Translations under genes and position numbers: made by a program
Virus record (IMG/VR): IMGVR_UViG_2563366924_000005
Location: 1-40,849 of that record
Length of the DNA: 40,849 bases
Source of the DNA: a virus
Taxonomy: Duplodnaviria > Heunggongvirae > Uroviricota > Caudoviricetes
Strand: one strand, 5' to 3'
In this document: positions 2,580 to 9,376 of the stretch, in pieces
Numbering within the stretch: the first letter of the stretch is position 1
How the letters are laid out: every line of letters starts with the position of its first letter
The notes under the pieces: model-generated
The model's database searches: none
Told to the model about the DNA's origin: nothing
The model's input: only the letters and a program-made list of their open reading frames with translations

Positions 2580-4475
2580 TTACAATATTCTAACTTCACC
2601 GTATACGCTCAATATTTTATCAGGAACCAGATCGCTTCTACCTTTAATTTGAACATATGGCAAATCATCAGTATTTAATTCCAAATTTGTAGAAAAGAAT
2701 ACTCCACCACCACTCTGGATTGAGCTACTAAATTCAAAGAACTCACCAGACATGAATAACCCTTTCAGTCTTACACTTCCAGACTGATGATTTACAACTA
2801 TGTTCACACTTAATGTCTCAACTGAATTATGAATTGCAGATGTCTTTAGTAACAATGTTGAATTACCAAAATCTATCCACTCAAACCCATATTCACCATC
2901 AAGACCACCTGAAAATTTACCAGCATAATTACCAGTTAATATAGAGTTGACGACATTTCCGCTAACTCCATTTATTTTCTTCCTCTGGTCTATTCTGTGA
3001 TTAACTCCAAAATAACCTTCAGGAACAATTAAGTCTCTGGTACTAGACGCAACAGAGTCATAAAATTCAACCCTTACACCATGACCATAAGTGTTTTCCT
3101 TTGTTTTTAATATCCTCCCAATGTTATCAGCATTTTCAAACCTGTTACTTCCAGAAATAAATATTTCACTAGCTGGCGTATCTGCATACCCAACAAAAAA
3201 CATTGAGTCCTTAGAGATAAAATTTACATAGTTATTTTCAAGTAATGATGAAAATACATAACTACCAAAATAAACACCAACATCATCGACATTTTCGATG
3301 TATGAGTTACATAATTTGAAATCATAAACAGCGGCATTAAATTGTATGCCAACAGTGCAACCTTCAACAGAAATACCATCCATTACAAGCGATGTTACAG
3401 GCCCATCAAATCTATATTGCATTTGGGCATTTGTTGCAATCAGTCTTGTAAATTCGTTTAAATTATGCGCCCCGCTAAAAACAAATCTATCACCCAAATA
3501 TTCCTGCGGATATTCAAAAACAATATTATCCAATTTAAGGTAGTAGTTATTGTGTGAGTGAATACCAAATGATGAGCAATTGCAAAATATATTTTTAATC
3601 TCACACCCATGATGCCAGTCTTGAATCCTTAGGCAGGCTGAACTCAACCTATTATTATCTGTGCTTGATATAATAGAGAAATTTGATAATGAGATATACT
3701 TACTGTAATGTGAATCATCACTAGAACCAAAGTTGCTTACAAGCACACCGTTATCATTATAATATCCACTCTCAAAAAGAGTAATATCTGAAAGCATGTT
3801 GAATACGCAACCGCATCCATCTATAATTTTTTGCTTTGCCCTCTCAAATGTTTCATCGAAATTTTGAGGTATAATTAATGTTTTTTTTATGCCATATACC
3901 TTACCTGGAACTCCAATTATTTTTTTGTTTCCATTAAATGCCTCTTTTATTCCTGCTTGAATGTAGTCAGAGCAGTCAATATTTGATGTGTTCCCATTAA
4001 TGTCTGGCGGTATGAAATCATCAAAAGAAAGTGTTTCCCTTAATTTAATTAATGATGTCGTGCCTTTTGCATTGTTTTCACTCTGAATGAATCCTATATA
4101 TTTTGAACCATCGTTTCCAGACAATCTTTCTTCAAGCTGATCAGGGTCATACTTCAGCACATTAGGAAAATAGAATTGCTGCGCTCCATACGCATCGTAT
4201 ACAGCCATAGAATGGCCTTGCACAGTTACGAATTTGGCAATCTGTCCGTTATATACCGGATACCCGCCAGCGTTAATGATGATTGGTTGCGAAACAGGAA
4301 CGTGAGAGCCGTCTTCGTTCTCTACATAAACCTGAATCTGGTTTTCAGGATTTACCGGGTCAGTGTCAATTTTACCGATATAAATTTTGCCATTGGCTAC
4401 GGCTTTAAAAGAACGCGCCATAGTGAAGAGTTGCGAAGGCATCGATACGATCACATTGGCTGTAATGTCTGTCAT
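2580..4475 (-). CDS. Tailspike protein: P22 gp9-type N-terminal head-binding domain fused to a divergent receptor-binding/depolymerase domain
   Basis: N-terminus [47 protein letters not shown]...[15 protein letters not shown]...NVLKYDPDQ closely matches the recalled P22 tailspike N-terminus; the remaining ~500 residues are unrelated to P22 gp9 and the DNA is visibly AT-rich. Confidence 0.85.
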
Positions 4476-4575: not shown

Positions 4576-5454
4576 TCAGTAGTTATGTACTGAAGGAGGT
4601 AATTCTTTATTCTTAAGTCTCATCCATGCGGAAAGATTCGTTGGTCCGTCTGGCTCATTGATATCAACATCTCGTGTGTGATTGATTAAAACGTCTCTCG
4701 CCATTCCGATAACATACGAGAATTCATGACCGTAGTCGTAGCATCTGCCGGAATAGTTCGATTGAATTTGTTTCAGCGCCGGATACAGTTCGCGGAATAA
4801 TGCCTGTGAGCGGTTAGCATAATCCCATAGCCATACAAGGCTGTTTGCTTCTTTTGCAGAAAGCTCGTTGACTTTCCTCTCTTGTTTGCCGATGAACTCT
4901 CCTTCAAGCACTACCCTGTGGATGTACTCTACGGCCAGCGGGATTTGTTCAATTGAAAGTTCATCAATGCTGTCAATACCAAAACGCTGATGAACCATAT
5001 TGTATGCATCGTCATAGCGAAGTCCTTTCTTTCCTACCAGCATGTTTACTGCATCGCGTAGCGGCGTTCTTTCCTCAACAGTGGTTTTCTTGCCTTTCAC
5101 ATACTCGCCATGTTTGCGAATTGAAGGTAGAACTTCTGCTGTTACCCACTTGCGGAATTTGTGCGGGACCGAACCTTTATTGACAGCATCGCGGCAGCGC
5201 AGAACCAATGTATACATACCTGATTCGCTAACAATGCTTAGATTCTGCTCACCACCAAGGGTGTAACTTAAAGTTACTCCCTTTTCATCGTCATCAAGTG
5301 CAGTAAGCGCCTTGCGTGAGTTAGTCAGGGTTAAAGCATCACAAACATCTTTTGCTACAAACCACGGCTCACCGCATTTGTTGATGACGCGGATTTCACT
5401 GTCGCCGAATTTGAAGATGGTGAAATCGTTTTGTGCCTTTGCTATACTTTTCAT
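4576..5454 (-). CDS. ant: Antirepressor Ant (Bro-N/AntA N-terminal domain)
   Basis: ORF 4576-5520; likely start at [11 protein letters not shown] (ATG 5454) with AGGAAA ribosome-binding site; [30 protein letters not shown] is a Bro-N-type motif; immI position next to arc and tailspike as in P22. Confidence 0.75.
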
Positions 5455-5516
5455 GTCAATATTTCCTAATCCGATTTGTTGATACCGAAGCCCTGACTGT
5501 TCCCGCAGTTGGGGCT

Positions 5517-5690
5517 TCAACTTTTTGCTAGATTACCTTTAGAACTATCCCGCCTTAAACTATCCACTAACCGCATTACCATCTCGGTATTTATTGAGCG
5601 ACCATTTTCTTTCGCTGACTTCTCGATTGCTAACTTAACCTCTAATGGGATGCGCAAAGGGTACTTTGGTGCGTCTGACTTGACTATCAT
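5517..5690 (-). CDS. arc: Arc-like ribbon-helix-helix repressor
   Basis: 57 aa from ATG at 5690 with GGAGG 5 nt upstream; ...[29 protein letters not shown] resembles P22 Arc (..REVLDLVRKVAEENGRSVNSEIYQRV..); directly upstream of ant. Confidence 0.75.
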
Positions 5691-5708
5691 ATTACCTCCA
5701 ATCAATTT

Positions 5709-5725
5709 GGTATAACCGTTATACC
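5709..5725. promoter_or_regulatory. 17-bp perfect palindrome (ggtataac-c-gttatacc) in the divergent arc/mnt control region; candidate Mnt/Arc operator
   Basis: Seen directly between the arc start (5690) and mnt start (5779); P22 Mnt is known to bind a 17-bp palindromic operator at the equivalent place. Confidence 0.35.
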
Positions 5726-5778
5726 ATTGTGATCGCAGTGATGCAATAGTAATATCACCAAAATGCTATGGAGGTGGT

Positions 5779-6015
5779 ATGTCACGCGAAGAGCCGCAAA
5801 TAAATATCAGGATTTCCAAAGAGTTAAAGGCAAAGGTTAAAGCCAGGGCGCAACATAACAAGCGTTCCATGAATGCTGAAATAATACAGATTATCGAAGA
5901 TGCTGTTTGTGGTAGATCGCTTAATAGCAATGAATTTGCTCAGAAAGAGGCTGACAAATTCAGGGATGCGCTGATTGAAACACTGAAAACCATGTATGGT
6001 AAGGATGCAAAATGA
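5779..6015 (+). CDS. mnt: Mnt-like ribbon-helix-helix maintenance repressor
   Basis: 78 aa; MSREEPQINIRISKELKAKVKARAQHNKRSMNAEIIQIIEDA resembles P22 Mnt (MARDDPHFNFRMPMEVREKLKFRAEANGRSMNSELLQIVQDA); strong GGAGGTGG ribosome-binding site; divergent from arc. Confidence 0.8.
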   Translation: MSREEPQINIRISKELKAKVKARAQHNKRSMNAEIIQIIEDAVCGRSLNSNEFAQKEADKFRDALIETLKTMYGKDAK

Positions 6016-6221
6016 ATAAAAAACAGTTTATTAAGTCAAAAACATCAAGCAAGGAAGAGCTAGAGAAAGAGCTAAACTCCCTGAAATATGCTCTGTGTCT
6101 GGTTTACTCAAGACTGCCAATGGAAGATAAAAACGCTATTTACAATGAAATGATTAGCAGCCTTGATTTTAACGATAGAGACCTAGCATCCCACCTCAAC
6201 AGCTTCCGCGTCCCTGAGTAA
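6012..6221 (+). CDS. Hypothetical protein (69 aa), translationally coupled to mnt
   Basis: ATGA start/stop overlap with mnt; AT-rich; no recognisable motif. Confidence 0.4.
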   Translation: MNKKQFIKSKTSSKEELEKELNSLKYALCLVYSRLPMEDKNAIYNEMISSLDFNDRDLASHLNSFRVPE

Positions 6222-6381
6222 TTCTGTTGCGGATTTGCTTCTTGCGGTGGTTTAGGCTGGAGAGCTTGGCTTCTGCTTCCGATATTTGCGCATCCAGATC
6301 TTTAAGTTCAAGATCTGAAAGTCGCTGGTCAAGCAGGGTTTGATTCAACTCGATGTTGTTCAGGCGTTCTTCTATGGTCAT
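6196..6381 (-). CDS. Hypothetical coiled-coil protein (61 aa)
   Basis: ORF with AAGGT ribosome-binding site upstream of ATG 6381; heptad-like sequence LSDLELKDLDAQISEAEAKLSSL; may be a shadow ORF. Confidence 0.25.
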   Translation of the reverse strand: MTIEERLNNIELNQTLLDQRLSDLELKDLDAQISEAEAKLSSLNHRKKQIRNRITQGRGSC

Positions 6382-6406
6382 ATTGTTACCTTAGTGGGAG
6401 ATTAGT

Positions 6407-6631
6407 ATGGTTTCTGCTATTTTATCGGTGCTGCTAGCGTCATTATTCATCGGAGTGGTGTTGATCTCCCCGATGCCAATAATATCAATATTATTCATCT
6501 TGATGATCGGCTGGTTGTGGCTTAAAAAGGCAAGAAACGATTATTTTTTATCCATAAGAGATAAGCAATTGGAGCTTTTCCGCTTGGGGTACACTGGCGA
6601 CTTGCCATTCTTAACATACCAAAAAAAGTAA
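6407..6631 (+). CDS. Small membrane protein (74 aa, two predicted TM helices)
   Basis: Hydrophobic segments LSVLLASLFIGVVLI and IISILFILMIGWLWL; followed by a rho-independent terminator; last gene of the mnt-side transcription unit. Confidence 0.45.
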   Translation: MVSAILSVLLASLFIGVVLISPMPIISILFILMIGWLWLKKARNDYFLSIRDKQLELFRLGYTGDLPFLTYQKK

Positions 6632-6637
6632 TAATCA

Positions 6638-6659
6638 AGCCGGGTCACTCCGGCTTTTT
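6638..6659 (+). terminator. Rho-independent terminator closing the mnt-side operon
   Basis: Stem agccgg/ccggct with 6-nt loop followed by TTTT, seen directly. Confidence 0.5.
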
Positions 6660-7010
6660 GATATGTCGCTCGCAGAACTCAACAAGCCTGCTCATTAAGT
6701 AGCAGTAAGTCTCGTTGGCTCTTCCTGGTTCAACATCAACACCGACCCTTGAGCAGATATCGAATGCCATGTGAGCGCACTCATGGGCAATGGTAGATAG
6801 TTTGCCATTGAACACGCCTATCACATGCAAAACACCATTCTCGCTGCTCATTGTATGAGACGCTCCGTTGGCATCCGAGTCCTGCACGTCCACGCCAAGT
6901 TTTTGATGCAGGCGTTGCCATTCTGGAAAGTCTCTGCAAAACACAATCGTACCGCTCTCAAAGAGCGGTACGAGCATCTTTGGTACGTTTCCAATGTTTA
7001 CTTTTTTCAT
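6645..7010 (-). CDS. Hypothetical protein with HExxH motif (putative zinc metallopeptidase-like), 121 aa
   Basis: Protein-like translation containing HECAHMAFD; weak GGA ribosome-binding site; overlaps the N-terminal extension of plus-strand ORF 6825-7361, so one of the two readings is wrong. Confidence 0.4.
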   Translation of the reverse strand: MKKVNIGNVPKMLVPLFESGTIVFCRDFPEWQRLHQKLGVDVQDSDANGASHTMSSENGVLHVIGVFNGKLSTIAHECAHMAFDICSRVGVDVEPGRANETYCYLMSRLVEFCERHIKKPE

Positions 7011-7040
7011 GGTATCCTGCGAAAAACTAAGGAGGTTGGT

Positions 7041-7361
7041 GTGTATATATCGCTATCTACCATTTTTTTCATCTGCTTAGCTATTTGGATTTTAAGAATA
7101 TGGCAGGATTGCTCTGTCAGCCATGCTGCTGCGGTGAGAAATAAAAACGCCCTCATAAAAGAAGCTGAAAACGTTGTCTTATCAATGGATCACCTTTCAT
7201 GGACCGAGATGACTACAGGGCAACAAGAGGTTTATGAGTGTGCGATTGAGCGGTTAAGGCTGCTTAAATCGTACAAAAAGAACCACGCACCCGACTCATT
7301 CCCATTCCTGAAAGAATGGCCGAGATGGTATGACCCGAAAAAAGCAACCATCAACCGCTAA
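7041..7361 (+). CDS. Membrane-anchored hypothetical protein (about 106 aa) at the sieA position
   Basis: GTG at 7041 lies 5 nt after a strong AAGGAGG site; N-terminal TM helix ISLSTIFFICLAIWILRIW; position between gp16 and mnt is where P22 carries sieA. Confidence 0.45.
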   Translation: MYISLSTIFFICLAIWILRIWQDCSVSHAAAVRNKNALIKEAENVVLSMDHLSWTEMTTGQQEVYECAIERLRLLKSYKKNHAPDSFPFLKEWPRWYDPKKATINR

Positions 7362-7369
7362 CCAACTTT

Positions 7370-9376
7370 TTACTGCTGGGCTTTCTCACTTGAAGCCTGA
7401 ATTAGAGGTGTAAGAGTTTCAGATACCCGTCTGATCGCTCTATCATAAGCAGTACTTCCTTTTGGCGTGTTTGCTAACTTTAGTAATGCGTTCCTCATCG
7501 CGCGTGACTCATAGCCCCTGCCAGCCATACCGATACCAGCTCCAACTGCCGCAACTTTTGCAAACATTGGATTTGTAACAGACGCAAGAGCTGTTATCAG
7601 CGCTGCTGGACCAGCTACCATTTGCCCTGTTAGTGGGCTTGCGGCAGCTGTAGCTGCCTGTCTAGTGGAATCAAGATATTTCATTATCCCATCAAGCTGT
7701 TTCCCATGCTCTCCTCTGAAGAACGTCTCAGCCTGCTTCCGATTCCTTTTCATTTCATTAATAAACTTCTCAACGCTAAGCTTTCCTGAATCGCTTGTCG
7801 CCTTATCCATTGCACGCTGAACAAGTGCTGCTCTAGCATTTTGACGCCCACTATCATCAAGCAATCGATAAAGTTGCGCCCTTTCCGCTGGGCTTTGGCT
7901 GAATACTAGTTTAGTGACATCTTCTGGCGTTGTTTTACCACTCTGAATAGCTTTTTGGACACGTGTATTGCTCATCATGTCGTTGAACTTTGCCCAAGAA
8001 CGATCAACACGCGACATGTTTTGCGCTTCCTTCGCACCTAGTTTTGCGCCAACCGCTTTTTTCATGTCTGTTGTGTATGCGTTATAAACAGACTGCGCAG
8101 CTTTCTCCAGCGTATCTCTATCGACCTCGTCAGGTGCTGCCATAAAGCGCTTACGTAAGTTTGTACGGTTTTCTCTAGCTAATTGCAGGTTATTTGGACC
8201 GCTGGTGATGTCATTTCTAAACTGTTGAAGGACAGAAACAGCTGAGCGGTCTTGCGATACTCCTGGGCGAGTTAACTTGGAAATCTGCTCATCAATTGCT
8301 TTCACTGTTCCAGTGATGTCAACAGGAGTATCCCCCATCAAACTGATGATCCTGTCGTACCGCTTGCCAGCAGCCTGAATAAATTGCTGCTGACCACGAG
8401 TAGCTGATTGGTAAAGTTGTGCGTCAGATATTCCACCAACATTATCGCTAAATGTTCTAACTAAATCTTCCCTGGCCTTTTGCTGTGCATTTCTTATCCC
8501 ACCTGTTCCGGCTATTGGGATTCGCTCAGCCATAGCTCGTGCTTGCTTACCAATATTTGTTCCCGGTTCCACAAGATCTGTTGTCATCAGTGGCAAGTTG
8601 TTCTGCTTGGCAAAGTCAATCTGAGCTTGTTTTTCAGGAGCAATCTTACCCATAGCAGAACGAGACACTGCGCTTGCGGTGTTTTCTACACCCTTCAGTA
8701 CCCCACCAAGACCAGCAGAAATTGCAGTTTGAACTGGATTAACATTCTCACCGCCAGCGATCTTAGTGGCACCCTGTAAAGCTAAATCAGTAGCGCCTGA
8801 TTTTAGTGTTGCACCTACAACAGACGCAGCTCTACCTGCTGGAGTGAATGCAAGAGCATTTGCCAAGAATGACGTTATATCCTGCGGTGACAAACCAGGC
8901 TTGTTAAGTGCATATTCCCCTGAAGGAAGGGTGACTATGGAATTTCCCTTCTCATCCTTCCGGATTTTCCCGCCAATACTTTGCAGTATTTTCTCCTGTG
9001 AAGCGTCTGAACCAAATAGCTGCCCCAATCCAGCACGCAGCGCATCAGTGCTTAAGCTATTAAGCTCTGGAGCAGACCCAACATTTTGCAGTCTCTCCAT
9101 TTCTGGTGTCATTCGGCTTTCACCGGTAACGGCATCGCGCATTGCAGCACCTAAAACAGCCCCTTGCTCAGCAGAGCGATCTAGTCCTTCCTTCTGCTGA
9201 GTGGCAATCTGTGCATATCCTGATGCAAGTGAGTTGTCTGCTGGCGATTGCTGAACACCTTGTTGTGTTGGTGCTGACTGACCAGCAAAATACTCATCAA
9301 TGGCGGTGCCAATATCTTCGGTGCTCGTACCATCAGGAAAGGTAAATGTCTTACCGTTTGCAGTTACTTTCATCAT
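7370..9376 (-). CDS. Ejection/DNA-transfer protein, P22 gp16 homolog
   Basis: 668-aa ORF in the P22 gp16 slot (gp7-gp20-gp16 order conserved); Gly/Ala/Gln-rich composition typical of ejection proteins. Confidence 0.7.

What the first reader, a model, noticed from the sequence alone, without database searches (positions are those of the whole stretch)
6012..7361. Accessory small-gene island at the sieA position
Between mnt and gp16 lie five small ORFs in alternating orientation. Two are mnt-coupled plus-strand genes ending at a terminator, one of them a two-TM membrane protein. There is also a membrane-anchored 106-aa protein and a 121-aa HExxH-motif protein. P22 carries superinfection-exclusion genes at this position, and none of these proteins resembles P22 SieA to my eye, so they are candidate exclusion or defence genes.
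Basis: partly seen in the sequence, partly recalled or inferred. Interest (0 to 1): 0.6.

Follow-up and report, generated by a model that had tools for sequence, protein, structure and literature searches.

The report
Swappable small genes beside phage immI
This stretch of a P22-like prophage is the already described, highly variable "ant moron" region: five genuine small genes assembled from several swapped modules, of which only one sits in the exact slot where P22 keeps its superinfection-exclusion gene, and another is a tiny zinc-protease-like protein that P22 itself also encodes.

Summary
All five ORFs exist and are real genes; substitution patterns show purifying selection on each. They are not one island. 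Window 6012-7361 is the variable part of the known "ant moron" between genes 16 and 9 of P22-like phages, built from at least four exchangeable blocks.

Plus-strand genes A (69 aa), C (74 aa, 2 TM) and E (106 aa, 1 TM) lie in the prophage-type units (mnt operon; sieA-type promoter). Minus-strand genes B (61 aa coiled coil) and D (121 aa) are co-oriented with the late operon.

Only E occupies the sieA slot. It shares with P22 sieA and HK620 hkcB a 98%-identical upstream region, the Shine-Dalgarno sequence and the GTG start codon. In 92 viral contigs that 42-nt junction precedes 11 unrelated small proteins, 10 with a TM segment or signal peptide. E is not a SieA homologue. Exclusion remains a positional inference.

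D is HkcC, 100% identical to an ORF in P22 and HK620. It is a mini-zincin with invariant HExxH plus Glu, and also occurs in late operons and virulent phages. It is therefore unlikely to be a sieA substitute.

Verdict: observation confirmed, interpretation partly supported, new cassette in a known kind of region, modest interest.

The parts
5779..6015 (+). mnt (Arc/Mnt-family repressor). Context gene that heads the plus-strand operon.
   Evidence: PF03869 Arc, E = 5.7e-13. Annotated as an Arc-family or mnt gene in Kapi1, Emek and E. coli 0H26.
6012..6221 (+). Gene A: 69-aa soluble helical protein, ATGA-coupled to mnt. Function unknown (phrog_16466).
   Evidence: ORF. phrog_16466 E = 4.6e-51. 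100% identical to Kapi1_062. 2:0 and 5:1 synonymous to non-synonymous. Travels with B in Kapi1, Emek and Salmonella prophages.
6196..6381 (-). Gene B: 61-aa coiled-coil protein on the late-operon strand. Its 3' end overlaps the 3' end of A by 26 nt (phrog_7586).
   Evidence: ORF. phrog_7586 E = 3.3e-44. 7:0, 7:0 and 11:1 synonymous to non-synonymous. The XhlA match is sub-threshold (E = 0.056) and there is no hydrophobic span.
6407..6631 (+). Gene C: 74-aa protein with two hydrophobic spans. Last gene before t_mnt, in the place of P22 orf59a.
   Evidence: ORF. Hydropathy. Only 4 clusters at 92% identity or more. 24:7 synonymous to non-synonymous in frame against L109, versus 0-12 to 18-30 in the other frames. 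Found left of hkcC in 9 of 56 IMG/VR loci, against 46 with orf59a.
6637..6659 (.). Bidirectional intrinsic terminator (P22 t_mnt, HK620 tORF59A). Ends the mnt-A-C unit and overlaps the hkcC stop codon.
   Evidence: Found. -12.6 and -12.1 kcal/mol on the two strands, z = -3.3 and -4.1. 23 of 23 nt identical to the annotated P22 t_mnt.
6645..7010 (-). Gene D = hkcC: 121-aa cytoplasmic mini-zincin with H76-E77-x-x-H80 and E100. Co-oriented with the late operon.
6623..7044 (.). Conserved block shared with P22 and HK620 at 98% nucleotide identity: terminator, hkcC and the sieA-type upstream region up to the start codon.
   Evidence: Both edges are sharp mosaic junctions.
6980..7010 (+). Equivalent of the annotated 'P sieA' promoter of P22 (30 of 31 nt identical). 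It lies inside the first codons of hkcC.
   Evidence: Transferred from the P22-pbi annotation. In P22, 85 bp upstream plus sieA was sufficient for exclusion (PMC10883804). The promoter itself is called putative there.
7002..7043 (+). 42-nt 'adaptor': TGGTATCCT (an extended -10-like motif, my inference), AAGGAGG and the GTG start. This is the left junction of the sieA-slot cassette.
   Evidence: Exact in 92 IMG/VR contigs. It is followed by 11 unrelated ORF families. Similarity ends right after GTG in 88 of 92. On the left it ends at 0-1 bp in 34 contigs, or runs about 376 bp through hkcC in 45.
7041..7361 (+). Gene E: 106-aa protein with an N-terminal membrane anchor and a helical domain (phrog_10450). 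It is the cassette in the sieA/hkcB slot, convergent with gene 16.
   Evidence: ORF. Same GTG as sieA and hkcB. N7 has ATG at that codon. 14 clusters. phrog_10450 E = 2.5e-52. AF2 pLDDT 85, helices 5-48 and 59-77. Always next to one gp16 type. A homologue lies downstream of cI in mEp043.
7370..9376 (-). Gene 16 (ejection / DNA-transfer protein, 668 aa). Context gene that marks the late-operon strand.
   Evidence: phrog_770 E = 1.6e-177. PF26808 Phage_P22_gp16 in homologous loci.

Best explanation
Window 6012-7361 is the accessory part of the 'ant moron' (immI region) of a P22-like prophage. It is a mosaic of exchangeable modules, and the genes on its two strands belong to two different expression programmes.

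(1) Plus strand, prophage-type units.
- P_mnt drives mnt, A, an antisense pass over B, then C, ending at the t_mnt hairpin.
- Separately, the sieA-type upstream region (promoter, Shine-Dalgarno sequence, GTG) drives E.
- E is a cassette in the slot that holds sieA in P22 and hkcB in HK620. It encodes a small inner-membrane-anchored helical protein.
- E most probably has a short N-terminus outside and its C-terminal domain in the cytoplasm (positive-inside rule, inferred).
- Its most likely role is to protect the lysogen at the cell envelope. I put superinfection exclusion or another anti-phage effect at about 40%, and an injection block of the SieA kind at about 25%.

(2) Minus strand, co-oriented with the late operon (20, 16 ... 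arc, ant, 9).
- D (HkcC) and B are most simply transcribed by late read-through.
- HkcC is a cytoplasmic mini-gluzincin-like metallohydrolase, with HExxH plus a Glu 20 residues after the second His.
- It belongs to a widespread phage family. I infer that it acts in the lytic cycle on an unknown host or phage protein and is not an exclusion gene.

What is shown: gene reality, mosaic junctions, the shared expression signals, the cassette diversity, the catalytic-motif invariance and the fold.
What is inferred: time of expression, membrane topology and every biochemical or biological function.
For: Region identity.
- ant, arc, sar and mnt lie to the left; gp16 and gp20 to the right.
- The tailspike and all late genes are on the minus strand.

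Mosaicism.
- 5744-6382 matches Kapi1 and 5993-6384 matches Emek.
- 6196-7043 matches S.Kent 1-2-1.
- 6623-7044 matches P22 and HK620 at 98%.
- 7023-7400 matches N7.
- The whole array occurs at 99.6-99.9% in only 7 of 5426 E. coli genomes.

E in the sieA slot.
- The upstream region, AAGGAGG and GTG are shared with sieA and hkcB, and similarity stops at the start codon.
- In P22, 85 bp upstream plus sieA suffices for exclusion (PMC10883804).
- The 42-nt junction precedes 11 unrelated families in 92 contigs, 10 of them with a TM segment or signal peptide, and one of them SieA.

E in lysogenic transcription units elsewhere.
- It lies at the end of the mnt operon in N7, L007 and L008.
- A phrog_10450 homologue lies directly after cI, before PL, in the lambda-like siphovirus mEp043. 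That is the rexAB position.

D.
- 100% identical to HkcC of HK620 and P22.
- H76, E77, H80 and E100 are the only invariant residues in 70 diverse members.
- The model is confident.
- 27 phage fold matches, including virulent phages.
- Relatives are packed inside late operons: ST64T between gene 15 and gene 3, mEp021, L114, and the tail operons of L009 and L011.
- One relative lies between the ligase and the RNA polymerase of an Autographiviridae phage.
Against: - No expression data exist for this prophage.
- In the Kapi1 lysogen, whose mnt-A-B DNA is 98% identical, mnt mRNA was below detection (PMC12922286). Strong P_mnt-driven expression of A and C cannot be assumed.
- sieA itself is only weakly transcribed in P22 lysogens and rises on induction (PMC10883804).
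- P_sieA is called 'putative' in the literature, and my extended -10 reading is unverified.
- The consensus promoter scan found no sigma-70 site for any gene here, including the known ones. It therefore neither supports nor excludes own promoters for B and D.
- Morons expressed in lysogens are also often co-oriented with late operons, so orientation alone does not prove late expression of D.
- E has no detectable similarity to SieA or to any other protein of known function.
- E has one TM segment where SieA is described with three to five.
- Its homologue in a siphovirus argues against a mechanism tied to the carrier's own gp16-type conduit.
Confidence: 0.6

Rival explanations
1. One reading: all five genes form one prophage-expressed superinfection-exclusion or defence island that replaces sieA.
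For: The genes are accessory, small and partly membrane-bound. They lie where P22 has sieA. No virion or assembly family matches.
Against: - The five genes belong to separately exchanged blocks.
- D is present in P22 next to sieA, and in late operons and virulent phages.
- B and D are antisense to the lysogenic units.
- There are no PADLOC matches apart from low-complexity coiled-coil noise for B.
Confidence: 0.07
2. E is a prophage-expressed membrane protein with a non-exclusion role. Candidates are an abortive-infection sensor or effector, a toxin-like or holin-like modulator, or a lysogenic-conversion factor affecting envelope physiology.
For: - The architecture is the same as in the best explanation.
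- A homologue lies in the rex position of mEp043. Lambda keeps an abortive-infection system (RexAB) there rather than an injection block (own knowledge).
- The predicted bulk of the protein is cytoplasmic (inference).
Against: Nothing distinguishes this reading from exclusion computationally. E has no similarity to RexA/B, SieB or any PADLOC model.
Confidence: 0.3
3. HkcC (D) is an ImmA/IrrE-type anti-repressor protease. It would belong functionally to immI, cleaving Mnt, Arc or the C2 repressor to switch the prophage to lytic growth.
For: - It has HExxH plus a downstream Glu.
- IrrE and CapP appear among the weak fold hits, and 'IrrE protein' entries appear in BFVD at E of about 0.05.
- The gene lies in an immunity region.
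Against: - No PF06114 (M78) match in any of 70 members.
- Relatives occur far from any repressor: upstream of terminase, inside tail operons, and in virulent Autographiviridae.
- HK620 keeps hkcC although its mnt and ant are only remnants.
Confidence: 0.08
4. HkcC and the convergent small gene (orf59a in P22, C here) form a two-gene unit, for example a lytic-phase protease held in check by a prophage-expressed partner. The D-C pair of this window would then be a variant of that unit.
For: - hkcC and orf59a stay together as a convergent pair in P22-likes (46 of 56 loci).
- The pair also occurs in two siphovirus-type prophages and in a metagenomic contig where HkcC is only 43% identical.
- They share a bidirectional terminator.
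Against: - C is unrelated to Orf59a and has two TM segments, whereas HkcC is soluble.
- HkcC paralogues upstream of terminase have no such partner.
- No interaction evidence exists.
Confidence: 0.15
5. The true gene at 6825-7361 is the 178-aa ORF called in the RefSeq (PGAP) records of E. coli 0H26 and relatives, and hkcC is a spurious antisense ORF.
For: The ORF exists and is the annotated CDS in NZ_CP081786.
Against: - Variants are 27 synonymous to 7 non-synonymous in the hkcC frame, but 1 to 19 in the ORF178 extension.
- HkcC has hundreds of homologues with an invariant catalytic motif.
- E homologues start at the GTG/ATG at 7041, preceded by their own Shine-Dalgarno sequence, in loci that have no extension.
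Confidence: 0.01

Closest known systems
[quoted passage not shown] 2008, PMC2629481)
   Same: - Same position, with ant-arc-sar-mnt to the left and gene 16 to the right.
- Same property of carrying different sets of small genes in related phages.
- P22's own set (sieA, hkcC, 59a) overlaps this one through hkcC and the sieA-type upstream region.
   Different: - This gene combination (A, B, C, HkcC, E) is rare: 7 of 5426 complete E. coli genomes.
- E, C, A and B have no described function.
- The exact junction at the start codon, and the number of cassette families behind it, are measured here. I did not find them in the papers read.
P22 SieA superinfection-exclusion protein, types A, B and C (Leavitt et al. 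2024, PMC10883804)
   Same: - E uses the same upstream region, Shine-Dalgarno sequence and start codon.
- E lies in the same orientation against the 3' end of gene 16 and is predicted to be membrane-bound.
   Different: - No sequence or profile similarity.
- One TM segment instead of three to five.
- No FxRYPxEAxxFNK motif.
- 106 aa against 162-164 or more.
- E is linked to a gp16 type that aligns with P22 gp16 only over its first ~35 residues.
HK620 HkcB and the other single-pass cassettes of the same slot
   Same: Same slot and the same architecture: a short N-terminal hydrophobic anchor followed by a helical domain of about 85 residues.
   Different: Unrelated in sequence (hhalign probability 0.5%). 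The function of HkcB is also unknown.
HK620 HkcC / phrog_1365 and, more distantly, minimal zincins (gluzincin-type HExxH+E; SprT-like and IrrE/ImmA-like phage proteins)
   Same: - D is identical to HkcC.
- It has HExxH and a Glu 20 residues after the second His. That is the spacing of thermolysin H146-E166 (own knowledge).
- The model has a beta-sheet followed by two helices that carry these residues.
- Zincins appear among the best fold hits.
   Different: - Not matched by any Pfam or NCBIfam peptidase model, nor by PDB sequence search.
- Only 121 residues long.
- Activity and substrate are unknown.
Lambda rexAB / HK97 gp15-type prophage-expressed morons
   Same: - A homologue of E sits between cI and PL in mEp043, the rex position.
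- hkcC-orf59a modules sit between the tail chaperone genes and the tape-measure gene in L009 and L011. That is the position of the HK97 gene 15 moron (HK97 position from own knowledge).
   Different: There is no sequence relationship to RexA/B or gp15. These are positional analogies only.

Membership tests
ant moron / immI accessory region of P22-like phages | [quoted passage not shown] | tested here: met
   gp16 at 7370-9376 (-). Tailspike ORF at 2580-4475 (-). ant, arc, sar and mnt lie between them.
ant moron / immI accessory region of P22-like phages | Gene content differs between otherwise syntenic relatives (high genetic flux) | tested here: met
   Different blocks match Kapi1/Emek, S.Kent, P22/HK620 and N7. 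There are 11 cassette families at one junction.
SieA (types A/B/C) | Detectable sequence homology to P22 or HS1 SieA | tested here: not met
   blastp found no significant hit for any of A-E. hhalign of the E profile against SieA gave probability 0.1%.
SieA (types A/B/C) | Three to five transmembrane helices (the source paper states three TM domains for P22 SieA, one more in types B and C) | tested here: not met
   E has one hydrophobic span (residues ~1-26) and C has two. Family description from PMC10883804.
SieA (types A/B/C) | Conserved cytoplasmic motif FxRYPxEAxxFNK | tested here: not met
   The motif is absent from all five translated sequences. Motif from PMC10883804.
SieA (types A/B/C) | Blocks DNA injection by P22-like phages; escape mutations map in gp16 and gp20 | not testable with these tools
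   Needs plating and injection assays.
SieA-slot cassette (positional class defined here) | ORF starts at the GTG of the conserved 42-nt junction and runs convergent to gene 16 | tested here: met
HkcC / phrog_1365 | Full-length homology to HK620 HkcC | tested here: met
   121 of 121 identical. phrog_1365 E = 1.4e-39.
Zincin (gluzincin-type) metallopeptidase | HExxH on a helix plus a third ligand Glu on the next helix | tested here: met
   H76, E77, H80 and E100 are the only invariant columns in 70 members. The model has helices 71-89 and 100-116.
Zincin (gluzincin-type) metallopeptidase | Zincin fold recognised by structure comparison | tested here: inconclusive
Zincin (gluzincin-type) metallopeptidase | Zinc binding and peptide-bond hydrolysis | not testable with these tools
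   Needs biochemistry.
ImmA/IrrE (peptidase M78) | Match to PF06114, and a gene next to its cognate repressor | tested here: not met
   No PF06114 hit in D or in 70 relatives. Relatives lie in late operons and in virulent phages.
XhlA (PF10779), considered for gene B | Pfam match above the gathering score, and a membrane-spanning segment | tested here: not met
   14.1 bits against a cut-off of 34.7. No hydrophobic span.
Known anti-phage defence systems (PADLOC-DB) | Match to any defence-protein model | tested here: not met
   No hit for A, C, D or E. B has only coiled-coil noise (PbeC 16 bits, JetC 12 bits).

The most novel reading that the evidence does not exclude
The 42-nt junction (promoter-proximal element, Shine-Dalgarno sequence, GTG) marks a dedicated hypervariable cassette slot. 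P22-like phages would use it to swap at least 11 unrelated small envelope proteins, each a distinct superinfection-exclusion or defence determinant matched to the neighbouring gp16 C-terminus. E would then be a new single-pass class of injection blocker, with relatives in the rex position of lambdoid siphoviruses. In parallel, HkcC would be an active late-expressed mini-metalloprotease, overlooked in P22 for decades, that destroys a host defence or regulatory protein and is paired with the prophage-expressed Orf59a.
Probability: 0.15. Interest if true: 0.7.

Novelty: new member of a known kind. Interest (0 to 1): 0.38.

Why it matters
[quoted passage not shown] Only about a third of the sequenced P22-like phages counted in that paper carry it (22 of 66).
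- The slot analysis shows what the others carry instead. A small set of unrelated, mostly membrane or secreted proteins sit behind identical expression signals and can be tested one by one with the published galK single-copy assay.
- E is one such candidate, and it has a relative in the rex position of a lambda-like phage.
- Separately, HkcC is a conserved protease-like protein present in the model phage P22. It is omitted from several reference annotations and mis-called in RefSeq E. coli records.
- Its invariant HExxH...E tetrad, and its spread to virulent phages, make it a tractable unknown of phage lytic biology.
- None of this changes concepts. It refines a known variable region and yields testable candidates.

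Tried and rejected
- Pfam, NCBIfam and PADLOC scans of A-E gave nothing above threshold. PHROGs gave only unknown-function families.
- PDB sequence searches with the HkcC profiles gave nothing significant (0 hits; best E = 0.16). The E profile matched only designed helical filaments at E = 0.07.
- Foldseek against afdb50 was unavailable.
- The BFVD fold search for E gave no match below E = 1. The E model is a simple helical hairpin, so fold search is uninformative.
- hhalign of E against HkcB and SieA showed no relationship.
- Pfam scan of 70 HkcC relatives gave one SprT-like hit at 1e-4 and none to M78. I therefore do not file HkcC under SprT or ImmA/IrrE.
- XhlA for B was rejected: the match is sub-threshold and there is no TM segment.
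- The 178-aa PGAP ORF was rejected on substitution patterns.
- The consensus promoter scan found no site for any gene in the region, not even P_mnt, P_ant or P_sieA. It was not used as evidence either way.
- Rfam over 5300-7500 found only sar, outside the finding.
- Distant blastn of 6012-6640 found only four phage records, all near-identical.
- The supplementary expression tables of the Kapi1 RNA-seq paper are not held, so per-gene values for Kapi1_061 and Kapi1_062 could not be read.
- A literature search for hkcC, hkcB and orf59a found only the epsilon34 and SieA papers. Both call them genes of unknown function.
Full report
OBSERVATION

- A: 6012-6221 (+), 69 aa. Its ATG overlaps the mnt stop codon (ATGA).
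- B: 6196-6381 (-), 61 aa. It overlaps the 3' end of A by 26 nt.
- C: 6407-6631 (+), 74 aa.
- D: 6645-7010 (-), 121 aa, containing HECAH.
- E: 7041-7361 (+), 106 aa. It starts at a GTG 5 nt after AGGAGG.

Hydropathy gives two hydrophobic spans in C, one N-terminal span in E, and none in A, B or D.

The hairpin at 6637-6656 followed by a T-run was found by the terminator scan. It folds at -12.6 kcal/mol, z = -3.3. Over 6637-6659 it is identical to the annotated t_mnt of P22.

All five ORFs are real genes by substitution pattern.
- D: 34 distinct variants in 63 copies are 27 synonymous and 7 non-synonymous.
- B: 7:0, 7:0 and 11:1.
- A: 2:0 and 5:1.
- C: 24:7 against an 84%-identical metagenomic copy. 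The same changes score 0-12 synonymous to 18-30 non-synonymous in the five other frames.
- E: 69% amino-acid identity at 65% nucleotide identity.

The RefSeq records of closely related E. coli prophages instead call a 178-aa ORF (6825-7361) and omit D. The variants that fall in that ORF's extension are 1 synonymous to 19 non-synonymous there. That call is therefore wrong.

CONTEXT

The interval lies in the immI region of a P22-like (Lederbergvirus-type) prophage.
- ant: 4576-5520 (-).
- arc: about 5517-5705 (-).
- sar antisense RNA: 5456-5522 (+), Rfam 71.6 bits.
- mnt: 5779-6015 (+).
- To the right: gene 16 at 7370-9376 (-) and gene 20.
- The tailspike ORF (2580-4475) and the whole morphogenetic block are on the minus strand.

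B and D are therefore co-oriented with the late operon. mnt, A, C and E are antisense to it.

The literature already names this region the "ant moron". It describes it as the most variable part of the late operon of P22-like phages. [quoted passage not shown]

MOSAIC STRUCTURE

No phage record covers 80% or more of 5700-7400. Different blocks match different phages:
- 5744-6382 (mnt, A, B): Kapi1 at 98%.
- 5993-6384: Emek at 96%.
- 6196-7043 (B, C, D): S.Kent 1-2-1 at 97%.
- 6623-7044 (terminator, D, upstream region of E): P22 and HK620 at 98%.
- 7023-7400 (E and the end of gene 16): N7 at 97%.

The full array occurs at 99.6-99.9% in 10 records from 7 of 5426 complete E. coli genomes. Salmonella prophages carry the same mnt-A-B-C-D array, but with a different cassette and a different gp16.

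GENE E AND THE sieA SLOT

Aligning the window with P22 and HK620 shows near-identity through the terminator, D, the annotated P_sieA, AAGGAGG and the GTG. Similarity is lost completely three bases later. E, SieA (164 aa) and HkcB (109 aa) therefore share their expression signals and start codon but are unrelated. N7 has ATG at the same codon, which confirms the start.

In P22, a fragment holding 85 bp upstream plus sieA was sufficient for full exclusion in single copy. The authors still call the promoter putative (PMC10883804). From the three-way alignment I count 4 differences from P22 in those 85 bp.

I searched IMG/VR for the 42-nt junction (window 7002-7043) and found 92 contigs. The ORF starting at the shared GTG falls into 11 unrelated families:
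- HkcB-like: 19.
- A second 109-aa anchored coiled coil: 17.
- A 129-aa signal-peptide protein: 15.
- SieA: 13.
- A 75-aa 2-TM protein: 9.
- A 62-aa 2-TM protein: 7.
- E: 5.
- Four rarer families.

These counts include the three reference sequences (P22 SieA, HK620 HkcB, the window's E) that I added to the clustering. By my inspection of the representative sequences, ten of the eleven have a signal peptide or a TM segment. Apart from SieA, none of the nine cassette families scanned has an informative Pfam assignment. One matches the uncharacterised YobH-like family above its cut-off, and one has a sub-threshold DivIC match.

Similarity to the window ends immediately after GTG in 88 of 92 contigs. 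On the left it ends either at the edge of the 42-nt block (34 contigs) or about 376 bp further, after hkcC and the terminator (45 contigs).

Cassette family and gp16 C-terminal type are strongly linked. E occurs only with its own gp16 type (5 of 5). The P22-type gp16 is found with four different cassettes.

The E family itself is small, with 14 clusters.
- In N7, L007 and L008 it is again the last plus-strand gene before a 660-668-aa gp16, which co-diverges with it. There it lies at the end of the mnt operon, without hkcC.
- A 30%-identical member of the same PHROG (phrog_10450) lies directly after the cI repressor gene and before PL in mEp043. mEp043 is a lambda-like siphovirus. This is the position of rexAB in lambda (own knowledge).

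The AF2 model of E (pLDDT 85) has one long helix (5-48) containing the anchor, a second helix (59-77) and an extended conserved tail with KKNHAP...WPxW. It has no fold match. E has no charged residue before the anchor and several Arg/Lys after it. That suggests the C-terminal domain is cytoplasmic (inference).

E fails every testable defining feature of the SieA family as described in PMC10883804:
- No homology.
- One TM segment instead of three to five.
- No FxRYPxEAxxFNK motif.

GENE D = HkcC

D is 121 of 121 identical to HK620 HkcC. It is equally identical to an ORF in P22 that most P22 records leave unannotated, lying between t_mnt and sieA. It is therefore not something this phage has instead of sieA.

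Family and motif.
- Close relatives form 32 clusters.
- A profile search finds 547 representatives at E of 1e-3 or better, nearly all stand-alone proteins of 110-140 aa.
- In 70 members that are 23-44% identical to D, the only invariant residues are H76, E77, H80 and E100.
- That is HExxH plus a Glu 20 residues after the second His, the spacing of thermolysin H146-E166 (own knowledge).

Structure.
- The AF2 model is confident (pLDDT 89, pTM 0.83). It has a small sheet followed by helices 71-89 and 100-116, which carry these residues.
- BFVD gives 27 matches at E of 1e-3 or better. They include proteins of virulent and jumbo phages, a few named SprT-like, metalloprotease or IrrE.
- No Pfam or NCBIfam peptidase model is matched.

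I call it a mini-gluzincin-like metallohydrolase. The motif and fold are shown. Activity and substrate are not.

Genomic contexts argue for a lytic-cycle role.
- Paralogues of the same PHROG are packed without gaps between lysis gene 15 and terminase gene 3 in ST64T. ε34 and phage L also carry copies, but I did not examine their position.
- Others lie just upstream of terminase in mEp021 and L114.
- Orthologues at 57-60% identity sit inside the tail operons of Klebsiella and Rosenbergiella prophages.
- One lies between the ligase and RNA polymerase genes of an Autographiviridae phage.

In P22-likes the only conserved sequence upstream of hkcC is the 30-bp gap to the cassette, whose coding sequence differs from phage to phage. 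A conserved private promoter is therefore unlikely, and late read-through is the simplest source of its mRNA (inference).

GENES A, B AND C

A and B travel together as a 3'-overlapping convergent pair in Kapi1, Emek, Salmonella prophages and this window.
- A is a soluble helical protein, translationally coupled to mnt.
- B is a coiled coil on the late strand. Its XhlA match is below threshold and it has no TM segment.

C occupies the place of orf59a as the last gene before t_mnt. Among 56 IMG/VR loci with an intact hkcC, 46 have orf59a there and 9 have C. The function of all three is unknown.

EXPRESSION LOGIC (INFERENCE)

The region interleaves two programmes.
- Prophage-type plus-strand units: P_mnt drives mnt-A-C to t_mnt, and the sieA-type promoter drives E.
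- Late-operon-sense minus-strand genes: D and B.

Caveats:
- In the Kapi1 lysogen, mnt mRNA was not detected. Kapi1's mnt-A-B DNA is 98% identical to the window (PMC12922286).
- sieA is weakly transcribed in P22 lysogens and rises on induction (PMC10883804).
- Morons expressed in lysogens can also be co-oriented with late operons.

COMPARISON AND VERDICT

The thing as a whole is a member of a known kind, the ant moron.
- E is a new, uncharacterised cassette of the sieA slot and not a SieA family member.
- D is the known but uncharacterised HkcC, here recognised as a conserved HExxH...E protein.
- No gene matches a known defence family.

Interest is modest. The finding is mostly explained by a described variable region. 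It does yield a clean, testable set of candidate exclusion genes and an overlooked protease-like protein of P22.

Noticed in passing
window 5456-5522 (+): A sar antisense RNA (Rfam RF00262, 71.6 bits, full length) overlaps the 5' end of ant. The immI circuit (ant, arc, sar, mnt) looks complete in this prophage.
   Followed up: no
window 5708-5726: A perfect 9-bp-arm inverted repeat, TGGTATAAC-C-GTTATACCA, lies between arc and mnt. It is probably the Mnt/Arc operator of this immI type. It differs from the P22 operators (sequence printed).
   Followed up: no
window 6825-7361; L004 4126-4662: RefSeq (PGAP) records of E. coli 0H26 and relatives annotate a 178-aa ORF that runs antisense through hkcC, and they omit hkcC. 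Several P22 records also leave hkcC unannotated. Substitution patterns show that the extension is spurious.
   Followed up: yes
L001 2330-2888; L009 5001-5563; L011 5001-5556; L115 544-1131: hkcC and a convergent 59-aa gene (P22 orf59a, phrog_3202, weak YjzC-like match) stay together. The pair occurs in P22-likes, in two siphovirus-type prophages (inside the tail operon, before the tape-measure gene) and in a contig where HkcC is only 43% identical. This suggests a functional pair. In the window orf59a is replaced by gene C.
   Followed up: partly
L014 2501-2890 (ST64T orf-129); L015 2477-3061 (mEp021_49); L114 4001-4387: HkcC relatives lie just upstream of the small terminase gene, tightly packed in the late operon; orf-129 is confirmed in phrog_1365. 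Some P22-like records carry two HkcC-like copies.
   Followed up: partly
IMG/VR loci L017-L108, versus window 7002-7043 and 7370-7970: Cassette family and the type of the gp16 C-terminal 200 residues are strongly linked. E goes only with its own type, HkcB-like only with another, and the P22 type with four cassettes. SieA escape mutations map to the C-terminal regions of gp16 and gp20 (PMC10883804). The linkage could therefore be functional, or simply due to adjacency.
   Followed up: partly
IMG/VR loci with left extension 0-1 bp (e.g. those giving 'MKKVNIFCLLHI*'): In about 34-36 of 92 contigs the 42-nt junction is kept but hkcC is cut off after about 6 codons. It is replaced by other minus-strand cargo, including a lipoprotein gene (MKRIIGVVAGAMMLSGC...).
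   Followed up: no
L006 2432-2728 (mEp043_049): A homologue of E (phrog_10450, 30% identity, same N-terminal anchor) sits between cI and PL of a lambda-like siphovirus, the rexAB position.
   Followed up: partly
L003 (Kapi1) and PMC12922286: Published RNA-seq of the Kapi1 lysogen reports mnt as not expressed. Kapi1 has a near-identical mnt-A-B block. [quoted passage not shown]
   Followed up: partly
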